Positions 12,751 to 16,508 are shown, numbered from the stretch's first letter. The stretch: DNA of 64,000 bases from Psilocybe cubensis (GCA_017499595.2 CM039008.1:2728001-2792000), one strand, 5' to 3'. Notes: a model not told the origin generated them from the sequence alone. Numbers and translations: made by a program.

Positions 12751-15700
12751 ATGGCTCTTCCATCTGGCTGGGCAAGTCTACGAATCTATCCTCCTATCGG
12801 TTTTGCTCGTGTCGGGAACTCAACCCTCGATGACGGTTGGTTCTATGGACCCGAGGTTCCTGGGTATTTTCCAGAACCTAATAATGGATTCAAAGACATC
12901 AACGGTGCGGTAAAACGACAGGTAATTCTTGAAATTATATCCTGTTTGAGGCACTCATACGTTTACTAGGCTGCAAGGTTCAGAATTTACGCGGTCGCAA
13001 ATGATGGTAAAGTGCTCGAAATAACCAAAAAGAACGGTTGGGATATAGCATGGAAGATCCAAGTGATGAACAAAAAGGCGTCTTGGTACACATTCATGGG
13101 TATTATGCCAAGTTATTTCATCTTCTTTATTCACTTTCTAATATCAACATCCAGGAAAGACCCAGGATGGTCACTTTGAGTCAGGCTATACGACCCTGCG
13201 CAACCCGAGTGTCCAAGCAAAGGTAGGTTTGAAGAGCATTCTTTATGTTCGTCTGCTTAGTTTTCTATGTTGCTAGCTTCCCCCAGACCAGCGTGATAAA
13301 CTGATTGTCGACAGTGGCATCCAAAGTGTTAGTGGCTGTAACGCCAAATCTGTCCCATTAGCGGGAAAGTTCTACGGGTCCAAAACCGAGCCCACAGATG
13401 TCTACCTTGGAGAGGCCAGAACAGATGAACAGGGCCGTCTTGTCGTCCTTGCTGGCCGCGGTCTGTCCAAGTCTATCGCTAAGGAAGACGATCCTTACCC
13501 ATATATCATGACTGATTTCGACTCACCTGACTGGATTGACGACACATGCGATGGCTGGATTACAGCAACTATAACATCCACGGCGTCGGGAAAGTCGTAA
13601 GTTATATCGTTTCGCAGTTTGAATTATTCTCAGTATTTTCAAAAGGGTCGATGCTCAGGGGAAGGCTCGCGTCATCGGCACAACCCCAAAGTTTGCAAAC
13701 GGCATATATGCACCAACATCTCTTTATGATTTGATGGAAGAAGTGTACGAGCGCAAAAAACGCGCTGCTCAGGGTGACTCTTATAGTGTTGGGGATGTAA
13801 GTTGGTACAAACACATATGGCCCCTTCTCCAACGACCACCTCTTCTCTCCTGGGTAAACGGACAAGCAAATGGGGGGCACGGTGCGCATTATATCAAAGA
13901 AATCTTTCGCTCCCATTGGACTTATTCCATATTTGTCAGGCCCGAATTCTGCAGGGAATTTCTTCGATGAAGGATGGCAAAATTCCCTCTCTGACAAGAG
14001 TAAAGTACATGAAGCTATTCGCAAAGGTGTAATTATGCGGATGCGACTTCCTGAGACCAACAAGAAGTACGACTCAGCCCGCGCAGGGCAGGCATACCCA
14101 TACTTTATGCCATGGCTTTCGGGTGATGGAGGTAATGTTATATATCAGCTCATGTCGACGTTGTAATAACAAAATGATCACATATAGGTCGAACAACTGC
14201 TGGTGATCCCTCGACGTTCGCATCCGTTACCGAGTTGCAATATGATCGCTTGATAAAATGGAGTGAAGGGAGCTTCGATACGACCGCTGTTAAAACGTAT
14301 CAGAATTTCGATGATATTCCCGTCGAGGAGCAACCTTCAGCGCTCACGAAGGCTGCTTTGGAGGCTACTATCGGCGCTCCTTTGTATCCTGGTATAGAAA
14401 TGTCCTGGAATGCGGAGGACGACAAGATTTACGACTTTAACACACCGTTTACTATTAAGCCAGAAGTTAATGCAGGGGATCTGACTCGTTTTCTCTCCTT
14501 ACCGTGGCAGAGTGACTTCTACATGTGTCGATCTTATTGGTGCGTTTCTTCCTCTCCATTTACCGTCCTTTGATAAACTCATATTTCTTTAGGTGGCCAT
14601 CTGCTCGGCCAGATACTGTCGTTACTGAAGAAGATTACAACATAGTTTCCCAGTCGGTGACCCCAGCCAATATCGCAAAGAAATTAAACGACAGGAAACC
14701 CTGGGAGCGTGGTCTTCATCAAAACTACACGGGTAATATCCTTTATTTTTCACGACATATTATCGTTAACTCAAGTAACCCATCTTCTAGACGTCTATTC
14801 AGACCAACCTCTTTTTGCCAATACTGATATGGCTAAAAACTGGCACAAGCTTGGTTTCATTGTCCAGCGTCCATCATTTGGCCCTGAACCCATATTCGTT
14901 GAAACTCAGCGCGGCATAATCCATCGGCCAGGAAAAGAAACGTTACCTGCGCAACACACTCCTGCAAAGAGTGGTGTCGTTGGAGGTCCATTGAAACTTC
15001 CACAGCCTGACAGTAAAAACCAACCCATCACGACCATCGAAAGCCTCCGTACCCATCTGCAGACAGCTATGGCCATTGAGCTGGCCACTATTCCCCTTTA
15101 CCTGTTTGGAATGTACAGCGTTAAGATTCCTGATGAGTACGCGAATGATCCTCGCTACTACGACCCTGTTATCGGTGCTATTCGAGGTAAAATAATACAT
15201 CGAACGTGCATAAACAATACTGATCAATCATGTTTATCTAGGCGTTGTTGCTGAGGAAATGCTTCATTTAAGCCTGGCTGGAAATGTTCTTCTAGCCGTT
15301 GGAGGCAATCCAAAGCTTTACGACCCACGATATATACCCTCCTATCCCGCGTTCATGCCTGGCCGCGTTCCAAAATTATGGCTCCAGCTCCGTAAGGCAT
15401 CTAAGGCTAACATCCAGACTTTCATCGATGTGAGTTTATAATTAGTAATAATGTGTTCTTAGTACCTTATTATTATAACCGATAGGTGGAAAAACGAGAG
15501 AAAACTGATGCCCCACCGGAATCGGACGAGTACGAGACACTCGGTCAATTCTATGATGCCATTAAAATAGGTGTGTCGTCAGAAACCATGCATCACATAA
15601 TCCTGCTTGACGTCAATTCTTTAACATTAAATAGGGTTGAAGTACTTGAGTAGTCAGAACCATAAGCTATTCTACCCCGAGAGCGCCGCATTCCAGTTTG

Positions 15701-16508
15701 CCCCGGGCCTTGGATATCAAGCCAAAGAGCGCGATGCAGGCGGCTCGGTCGTTGTGACGGATCTTGATACTGCATTGGAAGCTCTCAGCATAATTGTTGC
15801 ACAAGGAGAGGGTTCCCCAGGTCCCTATGACGATCCAGACAAGCTCGAGAAAGACCACTACGACGTCTTTATGGATTTGCGATTCGGGCCTGCTCAATGG
15901 GAGGTTTACCCTGTCGTCGAGAATCCTGTTACACCAGATTACTTCAAAATTGATCGCAGAATCTACCAGGTACTTTTCAGCCTCAATATCCACGTACCAC
16001 ATCGCTGACATCATTTTCATTTTGTCAGGTCTCGTTGACGTTTGACGCTGCATACTGCTTCCTCCTTCGTACTATCGAAACGCTCTGGCATGTCGAGAAA
16101 TACAGCAACCGTCAGAACCTGGTTCTCAAGAATATGTATGGTATTATGATGGGTGTATTGGCTCCTCTCGCAAAGTTCCTTGTATCACAGCCTATCAGCA
16201 ATACCGAAAGAGCGGCTCCGTGCTTTGGTTACTACGAATTTAAACAAGGAGTTTCCGAGCTCAAGCAAGTTCAGGACGAAATGGCTGCGGCCATCAACGC
16301 ATACGTCTCGGTAACAAAGGAGACTCCAGACCAGGTCGCCGTTCACGACTACGGGGCGATGTTGGAGACCTTACTTCCGATTCAAACCACAATCAACAAC
16401 CTTGTCGACCTTAACAGCTTTGAGAAACTCGACGTCGGCCCCACAAAGAAATTCAAATTACCAGGCGTTGAGAATCGGGGAGCCAAAGGGTTTGCAAAGG
16501 GAGCTTAA
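12751..16508 (+). CDS. lodA-like: LodA/GoxA-family CTQ amino-acid oxidase fused to a C-terminal ferritin-like (VioB/iminophenyl-pyruvate dimer synthase-type) domain, about 1,000 aa, 12 introns
   Basis: LodA motifs: IYPPIGFARVGNS, VKRQAARFRIY, NKKASWY, LRNP, LGEARTDEQGRLVVLAGRG, WIDDTCDG, MPWLSGDG, QYDRLIKWSEG, YPGIEMSW, GDLTRFLSLPWQSDFYMCRSYWWPSARPD, WHKLGFIV...FVETQR. Ferritin-like motifs: HLQTAMAIELATIPLYL, EEMLHLSLAGNVLLAVGG, TLGQFY, QGEG, EKDHY. The domain junction lies inside one exon (ORF 14709-15254). Confidence 0.9.

What the first reader, a model, noticed from the sequence alone, without database searches (positions are those of the whole stretch)
14791..16508. LodA oxidase fused in-frame to a VioB-type ferritin-like domain: a possible single-polypeptide oxidise-and-couple (or oxidise-and-detoxify) enzyme
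Seen: the LodA C-terminus (WHKLGFIV...FVETQR), a linker of about 40 aa and the ferritin-like start (HLQTAMAIELATIPLYL) share one uninterrupted exon, so the fusion is not a splice-model artefact. Candidate metal ligands IE, EEMLH, VE, QGEG and EKDH are present. Known: this motif set resembles the ferritin-like domain of VioB/RebD/StaD, which couple imino acids produced by a partner amino-acid oxidase (VioA/RebO/StaO). Inference: a CTQ oxidase may supply the imine or H2O2 directly to the fused domain. Alternatively the domain is a dimetal peroxide sink. Only the ferritin-like part is present, not a whole VioB, so the chemistry is open.
Basis: partly seen in the sequence, partly recalled or inferred. 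Interest (0 to 1): 0.85.

Follow-up and report, generated by a model that had tools for sequence, protein, structure and literature searches.

The report
LodA oxidase fused to ferritin-like domain
A mushroom gene does encode a single protein joining a quinone-cofactor amine oxidase to an iron-type helical-bundle domain; the pairing was known only as neighbouring genes, and its chemistry is still untested.

Summary
Window 12751-16508 (+) is a 13-exon gene of Psilocybe cubensis. Its spliced translation equals a 1030-aa UniRef protein exactly. Exon 9 (14791-15186) carries the end of a LodA/GoxA-type oxidase module, a linker of about 37 aa and the first helix of a PF12902 ferritin-like module in one frame. 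Contigs from two public runs lack all 12 introns, and one runs unbroken across the junction.

Both modules look intact. The CTQ residues are D482/C486/W491. The ferritin-like module has four Glu, two His and one Tyr, invariant in 27 of 27 relatives. A LodB/GoxB-type maturase gene lies divergently upstream.

The same fusion occurs in other Agaricomycetes, Mucoromycota, Glomeromycota and an amoebozoan. Some "split" fungal gene models are annotation artefacts.

The VioB reading is weak. Only the C-terminal third of a VioB-like protein is homologous, and the VioB model scores 17.9 bits against a cut-off of 1250. Bacterial PF12902 genes sat beside an oxidase gene in 8 of 12 loci read. I therefore favour a role on the O2/H2O2 side of the reaction, which is inferred, not shown.

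A 2015 paper already reported lodA, lodB and ferritin-like genes as neighbours in fungi. This is a new variant of a known kind, of moderate interest.

The parts
12751..16508 (+). Whole coding region: 13 exons, 12 GT..AG introns, 1030 aa. Exons: 12751-12921, 12970-13099, 13155-13222, 13277-13596, 13646-13881, 13940-14131, 14188-14539, 14593-14732, 14791-15186, 15242-15429, 15486-15570, 15635-15969, 16029-16508.
   Evidence: The spliced translation equals P0001 exactly. All 12 introns appear as joints in contigs of runs X1 and/or X2 and in no contig of X3 or X4.
12751..14732 (+). Exons 1-8: the bulk of the LodA/GoxA-type CTQ oxidase module (residues 1-536). The module continues to about residue 580 in exon 9.
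   Evidence: Pfam LodA_N 5.8e-54 and LodA_C 1.1e-25. NCBIfam GoxA 303.9 bits and LodA 131.2 bits, both below the equivalog cut-offs. PDB GoxA 9.9e-24 and LodA 3.8e-22. Foldseek of the full-length model: GoxA E 1.4e-26; LodA TM 0.63 normalised to the target.
14514..14596 (+). Codons of the CTQ site across intron 7: D482 (14514-14516), C486 (14526-14528), W490 (14538-14539 plus 14593), W491 (14594-14596).
   Evidence: The PWQSDFYMC motif aligns to LodA D512/C516 and to GoxA D678. SYWWP aligns to LodA 578-582, where W581 is the CTQ tryptophan (residue roles from PMC4417212). C486 and W491 are present in 31 of 31 LodA-like rows and D482 in 30 of 31.
14791..15186 (+). Exon 9, the junction exon (residues 537-668): LodA tail, disordered linker, and first helix of the ferritin-like module including E633 (15078-15080).
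   Evidence: Open frame. Pfam. X1 contig record 3 (2668 nt) and X2 record 7 (1561 nt) cover it and are spliced on both sides. Residues 583-598 have pLDDT under 50.
15242..16508 (+). Exons 10-13: the rest of the PF12902 module plus a second helical subdomain and a low-confidence tail. Ligand codons: E674 15256-15258, H677 15265-15267, E733 15489-15491, E818 15808-15810, H834 15856-15858.
   Evidence: Pfam. Invariant columns in 57 relatives and in 27 of 27 ferritin-like rows. AF2 model of orthologue P0004, pLDDT 84.7. 3hl1 Z 25.3, rmsd 2.6, 259 residues aligned.
10495..11950 (-). Divergently transcribed LodB/GoxB-type flavoprotein maturase gene. The ends are approximate. Introns are seen at 11144-11195, 11609-11662 and 11776-11831.
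   Evidence: NCBIfam maturase_GoxB 2.7e-30 and 1.1e-15 on two exons; maturase_LodB 2.4e-20 and 1.6e-12. CT..AC joints in X1 and X2 only.

Best explanation
This is one gene, one spliced transcript and one 1030-aa protein of Psilocybe cubensis.

What the sequence evidence shows:
- Residues 1 to about 580 are a LodA/GoxA-family quinoprotein oxidase module with D482, C486 and W491 in place.
- Residues of about 615-1010 are a PF12902 ferritin-like helical-bundle module. It has a conserved set of four Glu, two His and one Tyr (E633, Y640, E674, H677, E733, E818, H834).
- A flexible linker of about 35 aa joins the two modules.
- A LodB/GoxB-type flavoprotein gene lies head-to-head next to it.

What I infer:
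1. The LodB-like enzyme converts W491 and C486 into cysteine tryptophylquinone (CTQ).
2. The oxidase module deaminates an unknown primary amine or amino acid. The products are an aldehyde or keto acid, ammonia and reduced cofactor.
3. The ferritin-like module holds a dimetal (Fe or Mn) site that serves the oxidant side of this reaction. Either it consumes the H2O2 made when CTQ is re-oxidised, or it takes the electrons and reduces O2 itself.

On this reading an enzyme made without a signal peptide would not flood the cell with peroxide.
For: Architecture and expression:
- The gene model equals P0001.
- Spliced contigs in X1 and X2 cross every intron. One contig runs from the LodA module through exon 9 to the 3' end.
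- A complete TRINITY transcript of the same architecture exists in Pyxidicula operculata.

Conservation of the fusion:
- 5 of 14 hits to the junction exon carry all three Pfam families.
- All 10 proteins of 900 aa or more among the best 150 relatives of the ferritin-like part are LodA_N + LodA_C + PF12902.

Intact sites.

Fold:
- 3hl1 Z 25.3, then the ferritin, Dps, bacterioferritin and Mn-catalase superfamily at Z 9-12.5.
- GoxA and LodA for the N-terminal module.

Maturase gene.

No signal peptide: the conserved first strand of LodA starts at residue 7-9.

Oxidant-side role (comparative, indirect):
- Among 12 bacterial PF12902 loci read, 8 have an oxidase or oxidoreductase gene directly adjacent. 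These are a GMC oxidoreductase in 6, LodA/GoxA plus a LodB-like gene in 1, and a VioA-type FAD oxidoreductase beside a VioB-like gene in 1. What these partners share is the redox step, not the organic product.
- PF12902 is also fused to an animal-haem-peroxidase domain and to CDGSH/4Fe-4S domains. It sits next to a CDGSH gene in Streptomyces.
- Other LodA-like proteins are fused to a catalase-related domain (profile hit to 3e4w, 6.9e-10; 6 of 12 alphaproteobacterial loci) or to a PF14518 iron-containing redox domain. Both fusions are already in PMC4417212.
- A review states that VioB has catalase activity with haem b (PMC9705886, passage).
Against: - No biochemical datum exists for any PF12902 protein outside VioB, RebD and StaD. 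Metal binding is inferred only from conservation and fold.
- The catalase activity reported for VioB is attributed to haem b. It is not known where the haem binds.
- The CDGSH partners point to electron input rather than peroxide use, so the two sub-variants remain unresolved.
- None of 12 alphaproteobacterial LodA-like loci had PF12902 within about 9 kb, and standalone fungal LodA-likes exist. The domain is therefore not needed by the oxidase in general.
- GMC family members are not all H2O2-forming oxidases (recalled).
- The full-length model has pTM 0.67 and a disordered linker. A fixed arrangement of the two modules is not predicted.
Confidence: 0.5

Rival explanations
1. Product processing. 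The ferritin-like module acts on the organic product of the oxidase module. It might couple it in the manner of VioB/RebD/StaD, or carry out a second oxidation such as aldehyde oxidation or deformylation, making a specialised metabolite.
For: PF12902 is the family annotated on VioB-type proteins. P0001 661-937 matches residues 720-1022 of a VioB-like protein that sits between two FAD enzymes in Nocardiopsis. Ferritin-like diiron enzymes that act on aldehydes appear among the fold matches (5ux2, Z 8.8, within the range the tool calls unspecific). A covalent fusion favours hand-over of a reactive intermediate.
Against: The VioB equivalog score is 17.9 against a cut-off of 1250. The N-terminal 700 residues of the VioB-like protein are absent here. 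CTQ enzymes hold the nitrogen on the cofactor and release a carbonyl, not a free imine (recalled mechanism; Schiff-base intermediate title). In the loci read, the partners of PF12902 (GMC, LodA-like, FAD oxidoreductase) make chemically unrelated products. No other biosynthetic genes were seen next to the gene; its neighbours are a Pyridox_ox_2 gene, an SDR and an old-yellow-enzyme gene.
Confidence: 0.25
2. Cofactor biogenesis or repair. The dimetal module helps to build or maintain CTQ, for example the second oxygenation or the Cys-Trp cross-link, alongside the LodB-like flavoprotein.
For: The module always travels with a LodA-like module and a LodB-like gene in this lineage. An earlier scan note (e1-2871488) read a bacterial ferritin-like gene as a built-in partner subunit of a LodA/GoxA-like quinoprotein cassette.
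Against: In reviews, LodA and GoxA are described as matured by LodB or GoxB alone (PMC11951088, passages). 12 of 12 alphaproteobacterial LodA-like loci have a LodB-like gene and 0 of 12 have PF12902. PF12902 also pairs with GMC and FAD enzymes, which have no protein-derived cofactor.
Confidence: 0.1
3. Non-catalytic role. The module stores or senses iron, or only drives oligomerisation, as ferritins and Dps proteins do.
For: The fold matches after 3hl1 are mostly Dps, ferritin and bacterioferritin.
Against: Those matches lie in the Z range the tool calls unspecific for helical bundles. The unit is about 350-400 aa with a second subdomain, unlike cage-forming ferritins of about 160 aa. The recurrent pairing with redox enzymes and Fe-S domains suggests catalysis.
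Confidence: 0.08
4. Annotation or assembly artefact. There are really two genes, a LodA-like gene ending near 14900 and a ferritin-like gene starting at the internal ATG (M550).
For: Public models in Gymnopilus junonius and Cyathus striatus start at exactly that methionine. The 2015 paper drew separate ferritin-like genes in Gymnopus luxurians.
Against: There is no stop codon in exon 9. Spliced contigs cross it. The Cyathus 'LodA' model ends in an intron read-through followed by an out-of-frame reading of the very DNA that encodes the start of the Cyathus 'ferritin-like' model, and the Pholiota model ends in the intron. A protein starting at M550 would carry a structural part of the LodA module. 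Assembled contigs cannot exclude an additional shorter isoform.
Confidence: 0.02

Closest known systems
LodA/LodB and GoxA/GoxB (CTQ-dependent L-lysine epsilon-oxidase and glycine oxidase with their flavoprotein maturases; PDB 2ymw/3weu, 6byw/6eer)
   Same: Same two Pfam domains, same Asp/Cys/Trp site, same fold and an adjacent LodB/GoxB-like gene.
   Different: Below the equivalog cut-offs of both models: 303.9 against 750 and 131.2 against 600, so the substrate is unknown. Cys and Trp are 5 residues apart instead of 65 in LodA. It is eukaryotic, has introns, the maturase gene is divergent, and it carries an extra C-terminal module of about 415 aa.
Fungal 'group V' lodA-like loci with a lodB-like gene in opposite orientation and a PF12902 gene close by or between them (Campillo-Brocal et al. 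2015, PMC4417212)
   Same: Same three components and the same divergent arrangement of the lodB-like gene (passages read).
   Different: The paper describes the ferritin-like part as a separate gene and lists no PF12902 fusion; 'pfam12902' does not occur in its main text. It found the family in Eukarya only in four Basidiomycota strains. Here the two parts are one reading frame, and the fusion also occurs in Mucoromycota, Glomeromycota and Amoebozoa. Its supplementary tables with protein lengths could not be seen.
CC_0557 ferritin-like protein of Caulobacter vibrioides (PDB 3hl1), the only solved PF12902 member found
   Same: Sequence match 1.2e-10 over P0001 615-826. Fold match Z 25.3, rmsd 2.6, 259 residues. 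The helix-1 Glu, the EMLH motif and the QGEG motif are shared.
   Different: It is a standalone 317-aa bacterial protein of unknown function. No paper on its function was found; it is named only as a poor VioB template (PMC9705886; search).
VioB/RebD/StaD chromopyrrolic-acid synthases (iminophenyl-pyruvate dimer synthases)
   Same: They share the PF12902 domain and work next to an amino-acid oxidase.
   Different: They are haem b proteins of about 1000-1080 aa. Only their C-terminal third is homologous to this module. The partner is a separate FAD tryptophan oxidase. The VioB model scores 17.9 bits against a cut-off of 1250.
LodA-like proteins fused to catalase-related (pfam00199/CD08152) or PF14518 iron-containing redox domains
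   Same: The same logic: a CTQ oxidase module joined to an O2- or peroxide-reactive metal domain, with a LodB-like gene adjacent (PMC4417212).
   Different: The partner domains are different, the hosts are bacterial, and the catalase-related domain is N-terminal.
Bacterial three-gene cassette of ferritin-like, LodA/GoxA-family oxidase and LodB-like genes on Azospirillum plasmids
   Same: P0001 is collinear with the two proteins: residues 11-586 with the oxidase (142 bits) and 614-941 with the ferritin-like protein (98.5 bits). An earlier scan note describes such a cassette in another genome.
   Different: The genes are separate and the ferritin-like gene comes first. Identity is only about 29-31%. 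A di-haem oxidoreductase gene lies next to the cassette.

Membership tests
LodA/GoxA family of CTQ-dependent oxidases | LodA_N and LodA_C domains over the Pfam cut-offs | tested here: met
   183.8 and 90.5 bits against cut-offs of 26.3 and 25.
LodA/GoxA family of CTQ-dependent oxidases | Cys and Trp aligned with LodA C516 and W581, and Asp aligned with LodA D512 / GoxA D678 | tested here: met
   C486, W491 and D482. 31/31, 31/31 and 30/31 rows.
LodA/GoxA family of CTQ-dependent oxidases | Nearby LodB/GoxB-type flavoprotein gene | tested here: met
   Minus-strand gene at about 10495-11950: GoxB model 2.7e-30 and 1.1e-15 on two exons. Spliced in X1 and X2.
LodA/GoxA family of CTQ-dependent oxidases | Fold of solved LodA and GoxA | tested here: met
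   Foldseek E 1.4e-26 (GoxA) and 1.2e-25 (LodA, TM 0.63 normalised to the target) for the full-length model.
LodA/GoxA family of CTQ-dependent oxidases | CTQ actually formed; amine or amino-acid oxidase activity | not testable with these tools
   Needs protein chemistry.
GoxA or LodA orthologue (NCBIfam equivalogs NF038173, NF038172) | Whole-protein score over the curated cut-off | tested here: not met
   303.9 against 750 and 131.2 against 600. The protein belongs to the family but is not an orthologue of either characterised enzyme.
PF12902 ferritin-like family | Pfam score over the cut-off | tested here: met
   150.3 bits against 22.3, residues 626-841.
PF12902 ferritin-like family | Fold of the solved member 3hl1 | tested here: met
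   Z 25.3, rmsd 2.6, 259 residues aligned; Foldseek E 3.4e-9. The model is of the 76%-identical orthologue P0004.
PF12902 ferritin-like family | Family-invariant Glu, His and Tyr set | tested here: met
   E633, Y640, E674, H677, E733, E818 and H834 in 27 of 27 rows. Invariant in 57 sequences.
PF12902 ferritin-like family | Bound dimetal centre | not testable with these tools
   Inferred from conservation and fold only.
VioB/RebD/StaD (TIGR04492) | Equivalog score over the cut-off | tested here: not met
   P0004 scores 17.9 bits against 1250. P0001 gives no VioB hit at E up to 1.
VioB/RebD/StaD (TIGR04492) | Full-length architecture of about 1000 aa, including the N-terminal two thirds | tested here: not met
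   Only residues 720-1022 of a 1079-aa VioB-like protein match. There is no match to its first 700 residues.
VioB/RebD/StaD (TIGR04492) | Haem b cofactor and coupling of two imines | not testable with these tools
   Known from passages in PMC10851217 and PMC9705886.
Ferritin/Dps/bacterioferritin cage proteins | Four-helix-bundle fold of about 160 aa | tested here: inconclusive
   Z 9-12.5 over model residues of about 70-300. The tool warns that this range is unspecific for helical bundles.

The most novel reading that the evidence does not exclude
PF12902 may be a general oxidase-coupled dimetal module. On this reading it captures the H2O2 that its partner oxidase has just made (a CTQ LodA-like, GMC or VioA-type enzyme). 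It uses that peroxide, without any external reductant, to oxidise the partner's nascent carbonyl or imine product a second time. The fungal LodA-ferritin-like protein would then be a self-sufficient oxidase-peroxygenase in one chain, and the same logic would explain the unexplained ferritin-like third of VioB, RebD and StaD.
Probability: 0.15. Interest if true: 0.8.

Novelty: new variant of a known kind. Interest (0 to 1): 0.5.

Why it matters
LodA-like quinoproteins are seen as a reservoir of new amine and amino-acid oxidase activities, and no eukaryotic member has been characterised. PF12902 is a large family: the orthologue P0004 had 2108 relatives at E up to 1e-3 among cluster representatives. 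Its only studied members are the poorly understood VioB/RebD/StaD enzymes.

A natural single-chain fusion with intact sites in both halves, plus a known maturase gene next door, gives a compact experimental system. With it one could ask what PF12902 does: peroxide use, O2 reduction or product processing.

The work also corrects the record in two ways:
- the family is not confined to Agaricomycetes among eukaryotes;
- several public 'ferritin-like' and 'LodA' fungal gene models are halves of one gene.

Tried and rejected
- **Complex prediction** of residues 8-580 against 615-1030: no verdict (score 0.00, controls not run). This is no evidence either way.
- **The look-up of sequencing runs**: no RNA holder listed. 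The kind of X1 and X2 is only guessed. I rely on their intron-less contigs, not on the label.
- **The genome search 'own'**: no genome is held for the window, so paralogues in P. cubensis could not be counted.
- **The search for related loci** with the unnamed fused protein P0102 in bacterial and archaeal genomes: it found only two LodA-like loci and no PF12902 fusion. The search is pattern-limited, so this is weak evidence of absence.
- **DNA-level search** with the Azospirillum cassette: only 2 of 24 matching records hold the whole cassette. This says nothing on wider spread.
- **Quick tree** of 68 ferritin-like modules (the careful search did not finish). I left out P0004 and P0013 as truncated models. 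The Agaricomycete fused sequences form one clade (support 99). The 13 fused rows need 5 changes, but the well-supported branches force only 1, so the number of fusion events is undecided.
- **Foldseek alone** gave only weak ferritin-superfamily hits after 3hl1.
- **pdb_via_wide** was busy and was run.
- **Paper searches** found no description of the fusion or of a PF12902 function. The terms were 'LodA' with 'Agaricomycetes', 'LodA' with 'ferritin-like', 'PF12902', 'VioB' with 'ferritin-like', '3HL1', 'cysteine tryptophylquinone' with 'fungi' and 'ferritin-like protein' with 'GMC'. Subscription journals are not covered.
- **Considered and dropped:** the idea that VioB's N-terminal part is a degenerate LodA module. 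There is no match.
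Full report
**What is there.** The window is eukaryotic DNA with short introns. The finding's stretch is the 3' part of a plus-strand gene at 12751-16508. Three-frame reading and the raw sequence show that 14791 is the first base after an AG acceptor and that 16506-16508 is the stop codon.

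A model of 13 exons and 12 GT..AG introns (48-64 nt) translates to 1030 residues. It is letter-for-letter identical to protein P0001, which UniRef assigns to Psilocybe cubensis and names 'Iminophenyl-pyruvate dimer synthase domain-containing protein'. Pfam finds LodA_N at 13-233 (5.8e-54), LodA_C at 370-497 (1.1e-25) and Ferritin-like PF12902 at 626-841 (9.7e-44).

Exon 9 (14791-15186, residues 537-668) has no stop. It contains the last conserved elements of the oxidase module, a linker, and the first PF12902 helix.

**Is the fusion real?** I laid the contigs of four public runs on 10300-16800.
- Two runs of genome size (X3, X4) carry the unspliced sequence.
- Two smaller runs (X1, X2; their kind is only guessed) carry contigs in which introns are removed exactly at GT..AG borders. 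All 12 introns of my model appear as such joints in X1, X2 or both.
- One X1 contig of 2668 nt runs from the oxidase module through both borders of exon 9 to 16599. An X2 contig of 1561 nt covers exon 9 and the last exon.
- Assembled contigs cannot exclude an extra, shorter isoform.

Independent support comes from other organisms.
- Of 14 database hits to the junction exon, 5 have all three Pfam families and 2 more have LodA_C plus PF12902.
- Among the best 150 cluster representatives related to the ferritin-like part, all 10 proteins of 900 aa or more have the three families.
- One of these is a complete TRINITY transcript from the testate amoeba Pyxidicula operculata.
- Named sources of the fused form are Volvariella, Sphaerobolus, Russula and Mycena (Agaricomycetes), Jimgerdemannia (Mucoromycota), and Ambispora, Dentiscutata and Acaulospora. 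I checked the lineage only for Pyxidicula, Jimgerdemannia and Ambispora (Glomeromycota). That Dentiscutata and Acaulospora are also Glomeromycota is recalled.

**The 'split' gene models.** Public models in Gymnopilus and Cyathus start the 'ferritin-like protein' at the internal Met550. The Cyathus 'LodA' model on the same contig ends with an intron read-through. After that it reads, out of frame, the same DNA that encodes the start of the Cyathus 'ferritin-like' model. The Pholiota model stops inside the intron. These splits are annotation artefacts.

A protein starting at M550 would also carry a piece of the oxidase fold. Bacterial LodA-likes align to P0001 up to 578-586. Residues 545-575 form a helix and two strands with pLDDT of about 90 in the full-length model, but are disordered in the isolated C-terminal model.

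True standalone fungal LodA-likes do exist, for example in Phanerochaete and Tulasnella. Standalone fungal ferritin-like proteins exist too, in Auricularia, Serendipita, Pluteus and Tulasnella. Both states therefore occur in fungi.

**The oxidase module.**
- It matches solved GoxA (9.9e-24) and LodA (3.8e-22). The full-length AF2 model (pLDDT 86.3) finds them by fold: E 1.4e-26 for GoxA, and TM 0.63 normalised to the target for LodA.
- The motif around D482 and C486 aligns with LodA D512/C516 and GoxA D678. SYWWP aligns with LodA 578-582, whose W581 is the quinone tryptophan (residue roles from PMC4417212, passage).
- Cys and Trp are only five residues apart here. The spacing resembles that of the quinohaemoprotein amine dehydrogenase gamma subunit, to which there are faint hits. 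In an alignment with 31 LodA-like rows, C486 and W491 are present in 31 of 31 and D482 in 30 of 31.
- The NCBIfam equivalogs for GoxA and LodA are not reached: 303.9 against 750 and 131.2 against 600. The substrate is therefore unknown.
- The first conserved strand starts at residue 7-9, so there is no signal peptide. An intracellular location is my inference.

**The maturase.** Head-to-head upstream, at about 10495-11950 on the minus strand, lies a spliced gene whose exons hit the GoxB and LodB maturase models (2.7e-30 and 1.1e-15; joints). This is the arrangement published for fungal lodA-like genes.

**The ferritin-like module.** I searched 1.84 billion cluster representatives with the 76%-identical orthologue P0004. 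This gave 2108 relatives at E up to 1e-3, mostly proteins of 350-420 aa that match P0004 residues of about 68-420. The unit is therefore PF12902 plus a further region of about 130 aa.
- In 57 aligned relatives the invariant columns include one Glu in helix 1, a Tyr seven residues later, the Glu and His of EMLH, a Glu after the third helix, the Glu of QGEG and a His 16 residues later.
- In P0001 these are E633, Y640, E674, H677, E733, E818 and H834, found in 27 of 27 ferritin-like rows.
- The AF2 model (pLDDT 84.7, pTM 0.85) matches the one solved family member, 3hl1, at Z 25.3 (rmsd 2.6, 259 residues). It then matches Dps-like, bacterioferritin, Mn-catalase, alternative oxidase and aldehyde-deformylating oxygenase structures at Z 8.8-12.5. 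The tool warns that this range is unspecific for helical bundles.
- A dimetal-carboxylate site is thus a well-founded inference, but not a demonstration.

**Relation to VioB.**
- The VioB equivalog gives 17.9 bits against a cut-off of 1250.
- A VioB-like protein of 1079 aa sits between two FAD enzymes on a Nocardiopsis plasmid. Against it, P0001 residues 661-937 match residues 720-1022 (47 bits) and nothing else matches.
- A review notes that VioB has haem b and catalase activity, and that its only structural template is 3hl1 at 19.85% identity (PMC9705886, passages). PMC10851217 (passages) calls RebD and StaD haem-containing synthases that couple two imines.
- The module is therefore a PF12902 member, not a VioB orthologue.

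**What its relatives keep company with.** I read 12 bacterial PF12902 loci on plasmids, out of 174 matching records. I chose them from the top of the list and from one DNA hit, so they are not a random sample.

| Context of the PF12902 gene | Loci (of 12) | Where |
|---|---|---|
| GMC oxidoreductase gene directly upstream on the same strand, often overlapping | 6 | Ruegeria, Pseudoalteromonas, Gloeothece, Methylorubrum, Agrobacterium, Bradyrhizobium elkanii (a fragment) |
| LodA/GoxA-family gene plus LodB-like gene directly downstream | 1 | Azospirillum brasilense; the same cassette at 97.9% identity in a second Azospirillum |
| VioB-like protein next to a FAD oxidoreductase | 1 | Nocardiopsis |
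| CDGSH iron-sulfur gene overlapping downstream | 1 | Streptomyces |
| Fusion to a BNR-repeat region | 2 | Rhizobium, Bradyrhizobium barranii |
| Preceded by an unrecognised 669-aa protein | 1 | Azospirillum sp. B510 |

PF12902 is also fused to an animal-haem-peroxidase domain, to CDGSH plus 4Fe-4S domains and to a PLD domain.

On the other side, LodA-like proteins are fused to other O2- or peroxide-reactive domains.
- In a sample of 401 alphaproteobacterial genomes, 11 had LodA_N, in 12 loci.
- All 12 loci had a LodB-like gene. Six had an N-terminal catalase-related domain, one had a C-terminal PF14518 domain, and none had PF12902 within about 9 kb.
- These two fusions were already tabulated in 2015 (PMC4417212).

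**How it most likely works.** Shown: one protein, two intact-looking modules, and a maturase gene. Everything in this section is inferred.

The partners of PF12902 (CTQ, GMC and FAD enzymes) share a redox step but not an organic product. LodA-likes elsewhere recruit catalase-related or iron redox domains. I therefore favour a role on the oxidant side: consuming the H2O2 formed on CTQ re-oxidation, or accepting the electrons and reducing O2 at the dimetal site. The CDGSH partners fit the second option better. I give the two together 0.5.

The alternatives and their weights are:
A CTQ enzyme keeps the nitrogen on the cofactor and releases a carbonyl, which counts against a free-imine hand-over. 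That mechanism is recalled; a Schiff-base intermediate is named in a PDB title;
- a role in CTQ biogenesis, 0.1;
- a non-catalytic role, 0.08;
- an artefact, 0.02.

The full-length model places the two modules with only moderate confidence (pTM 0.67) and has a disordered linker at 583-598.

**Novelty.** The 2015 survey (PMC4417212; I read passages, not the whole text, and its supplements are closed) reported three relevant points:
- fungal lodA-like genes have a lodB-like gene in opposite orientation;
- LodA-like genes occur in Eukarya only in four Basidiomycota strains.

It lists fusions to pfam00199, pfam14518 and vWA, but none to PF12902. Public databases already show the three-domain architecture automatically. 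I found such a cassette independently in Azospirillum.

What is new here:
- the demonstration that the fungal arrangement is a single expressed reading frame;
- its spread to Mucoromycota, Glomeromycota and Amoebozoa;
- the recognition that some split models are artefacts;
- the wider pattern of PF12902 as an oxidase partner.

I class it as a new variant of a known kind, with interest 0.5.

Noticed in passing
window 9567-10418 (+): An intron-less ORF with a Pyridox_ox_2 (PF12900) FMN-binding split-barrel domain (9.2e-29) lies tail-to-tail with the LodB-like gene. One X1 contig (2502 nt) spans both 3' ends. Whether it belongs to the system is unknown.
   Followed up: partly
window 18031-19233 (-): An old-yellow-enzyme type NADH:flavin oxidoreductase gene (PF00724, 1.1e-44) lies about 1.5 kb downstream of the fusion gene. 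Exons of a short-chain dehydrogenase lie at about 7600-8478 (+).
   Followed up: partly
window 29572-35148 (+); 42348-47336 (+); 48071-50395 (-); 39859-41919 (-): One Gypsy-type and three Copia-type LTR retrotransposon coding regions (gag, protease, RT, RNase H, integrase domains). They fill much of the second half of the window and account for its GC-rich blocks.
   Followed up: partly
window 19740-21897 (-) and 1220-1798 (-): A HET (heterokaryon incompatibility) domain gene (4e-24), and a CxC6 cysteine-cluster ORF of the kind associated with KDZ transposases (3.6e-27).
   Followed up: no
window 4384-5585 (+): A cutinase-domain gene (1.8e-24). Its last exon ends in a Cys-rich stretch that looks like a fungal cellulose-binding module; that resemblance is recalled, not tested.
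   Followed up: no
P0001 residues 1009-1030 (window about 16440-16505): The low-confidence C-terminal tail ends in a motif (GAKGFA-x-G) that is conserved in seven of the eight sequences reaching the C-terminus (GNKGFA in Cyathus P0013). No function is known for it, and it does not look like a classical peroxisomal tripeptide (recalled).
   Followed up: no
proteins P0177/P0013 (Cyathus striatus), P0178 (Pholiota conissans), P0004 (Gymnopilus junonius): These public fungal gene models split the fusion gene in two. The 'LodA' halves end in intron read-through, and the 'ferritin-like' halves start at the internal Met inside the oxidase module.
   Followed up: yes
loci L003, L007, L021, L023, L024, L025 (bacterial plasmids): There is a conserved two-gene module of a GMC oxidoreductase followed by a PF12902 ferritin-like gene, often with overlapping stop and start codons. 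In two cases it sits with GH15, iolE-like and sugar-phosphate isomerase genes, and in one case beside a Dyp-type peroxidase. I found no paper on it.
   Followed up: partly
locus L001 10001-13588 (+), Roseobacter genome assembly: Of the two bacterial LodA-like loci recovered with the fused query P0102, L001 is the closer to the fungal oxidase module (33% identity, against 31% for L002). It is itself fused at its C-terminus to a PF14518 iron-containing redox domain (4.5e-19). A flavin amine oxidase gene follows it and a divergent LodB-like gene precedes it.
   Followed up: partly
protein P0099 (702 aa, unnamed source): A LodA_C plus PF12902 protein in which Pfam also finds a ubiquitin domain (8e-7) inside the ferritin-like region. 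It may be a chimeric assembly or a real insertion.
   Followed up: no
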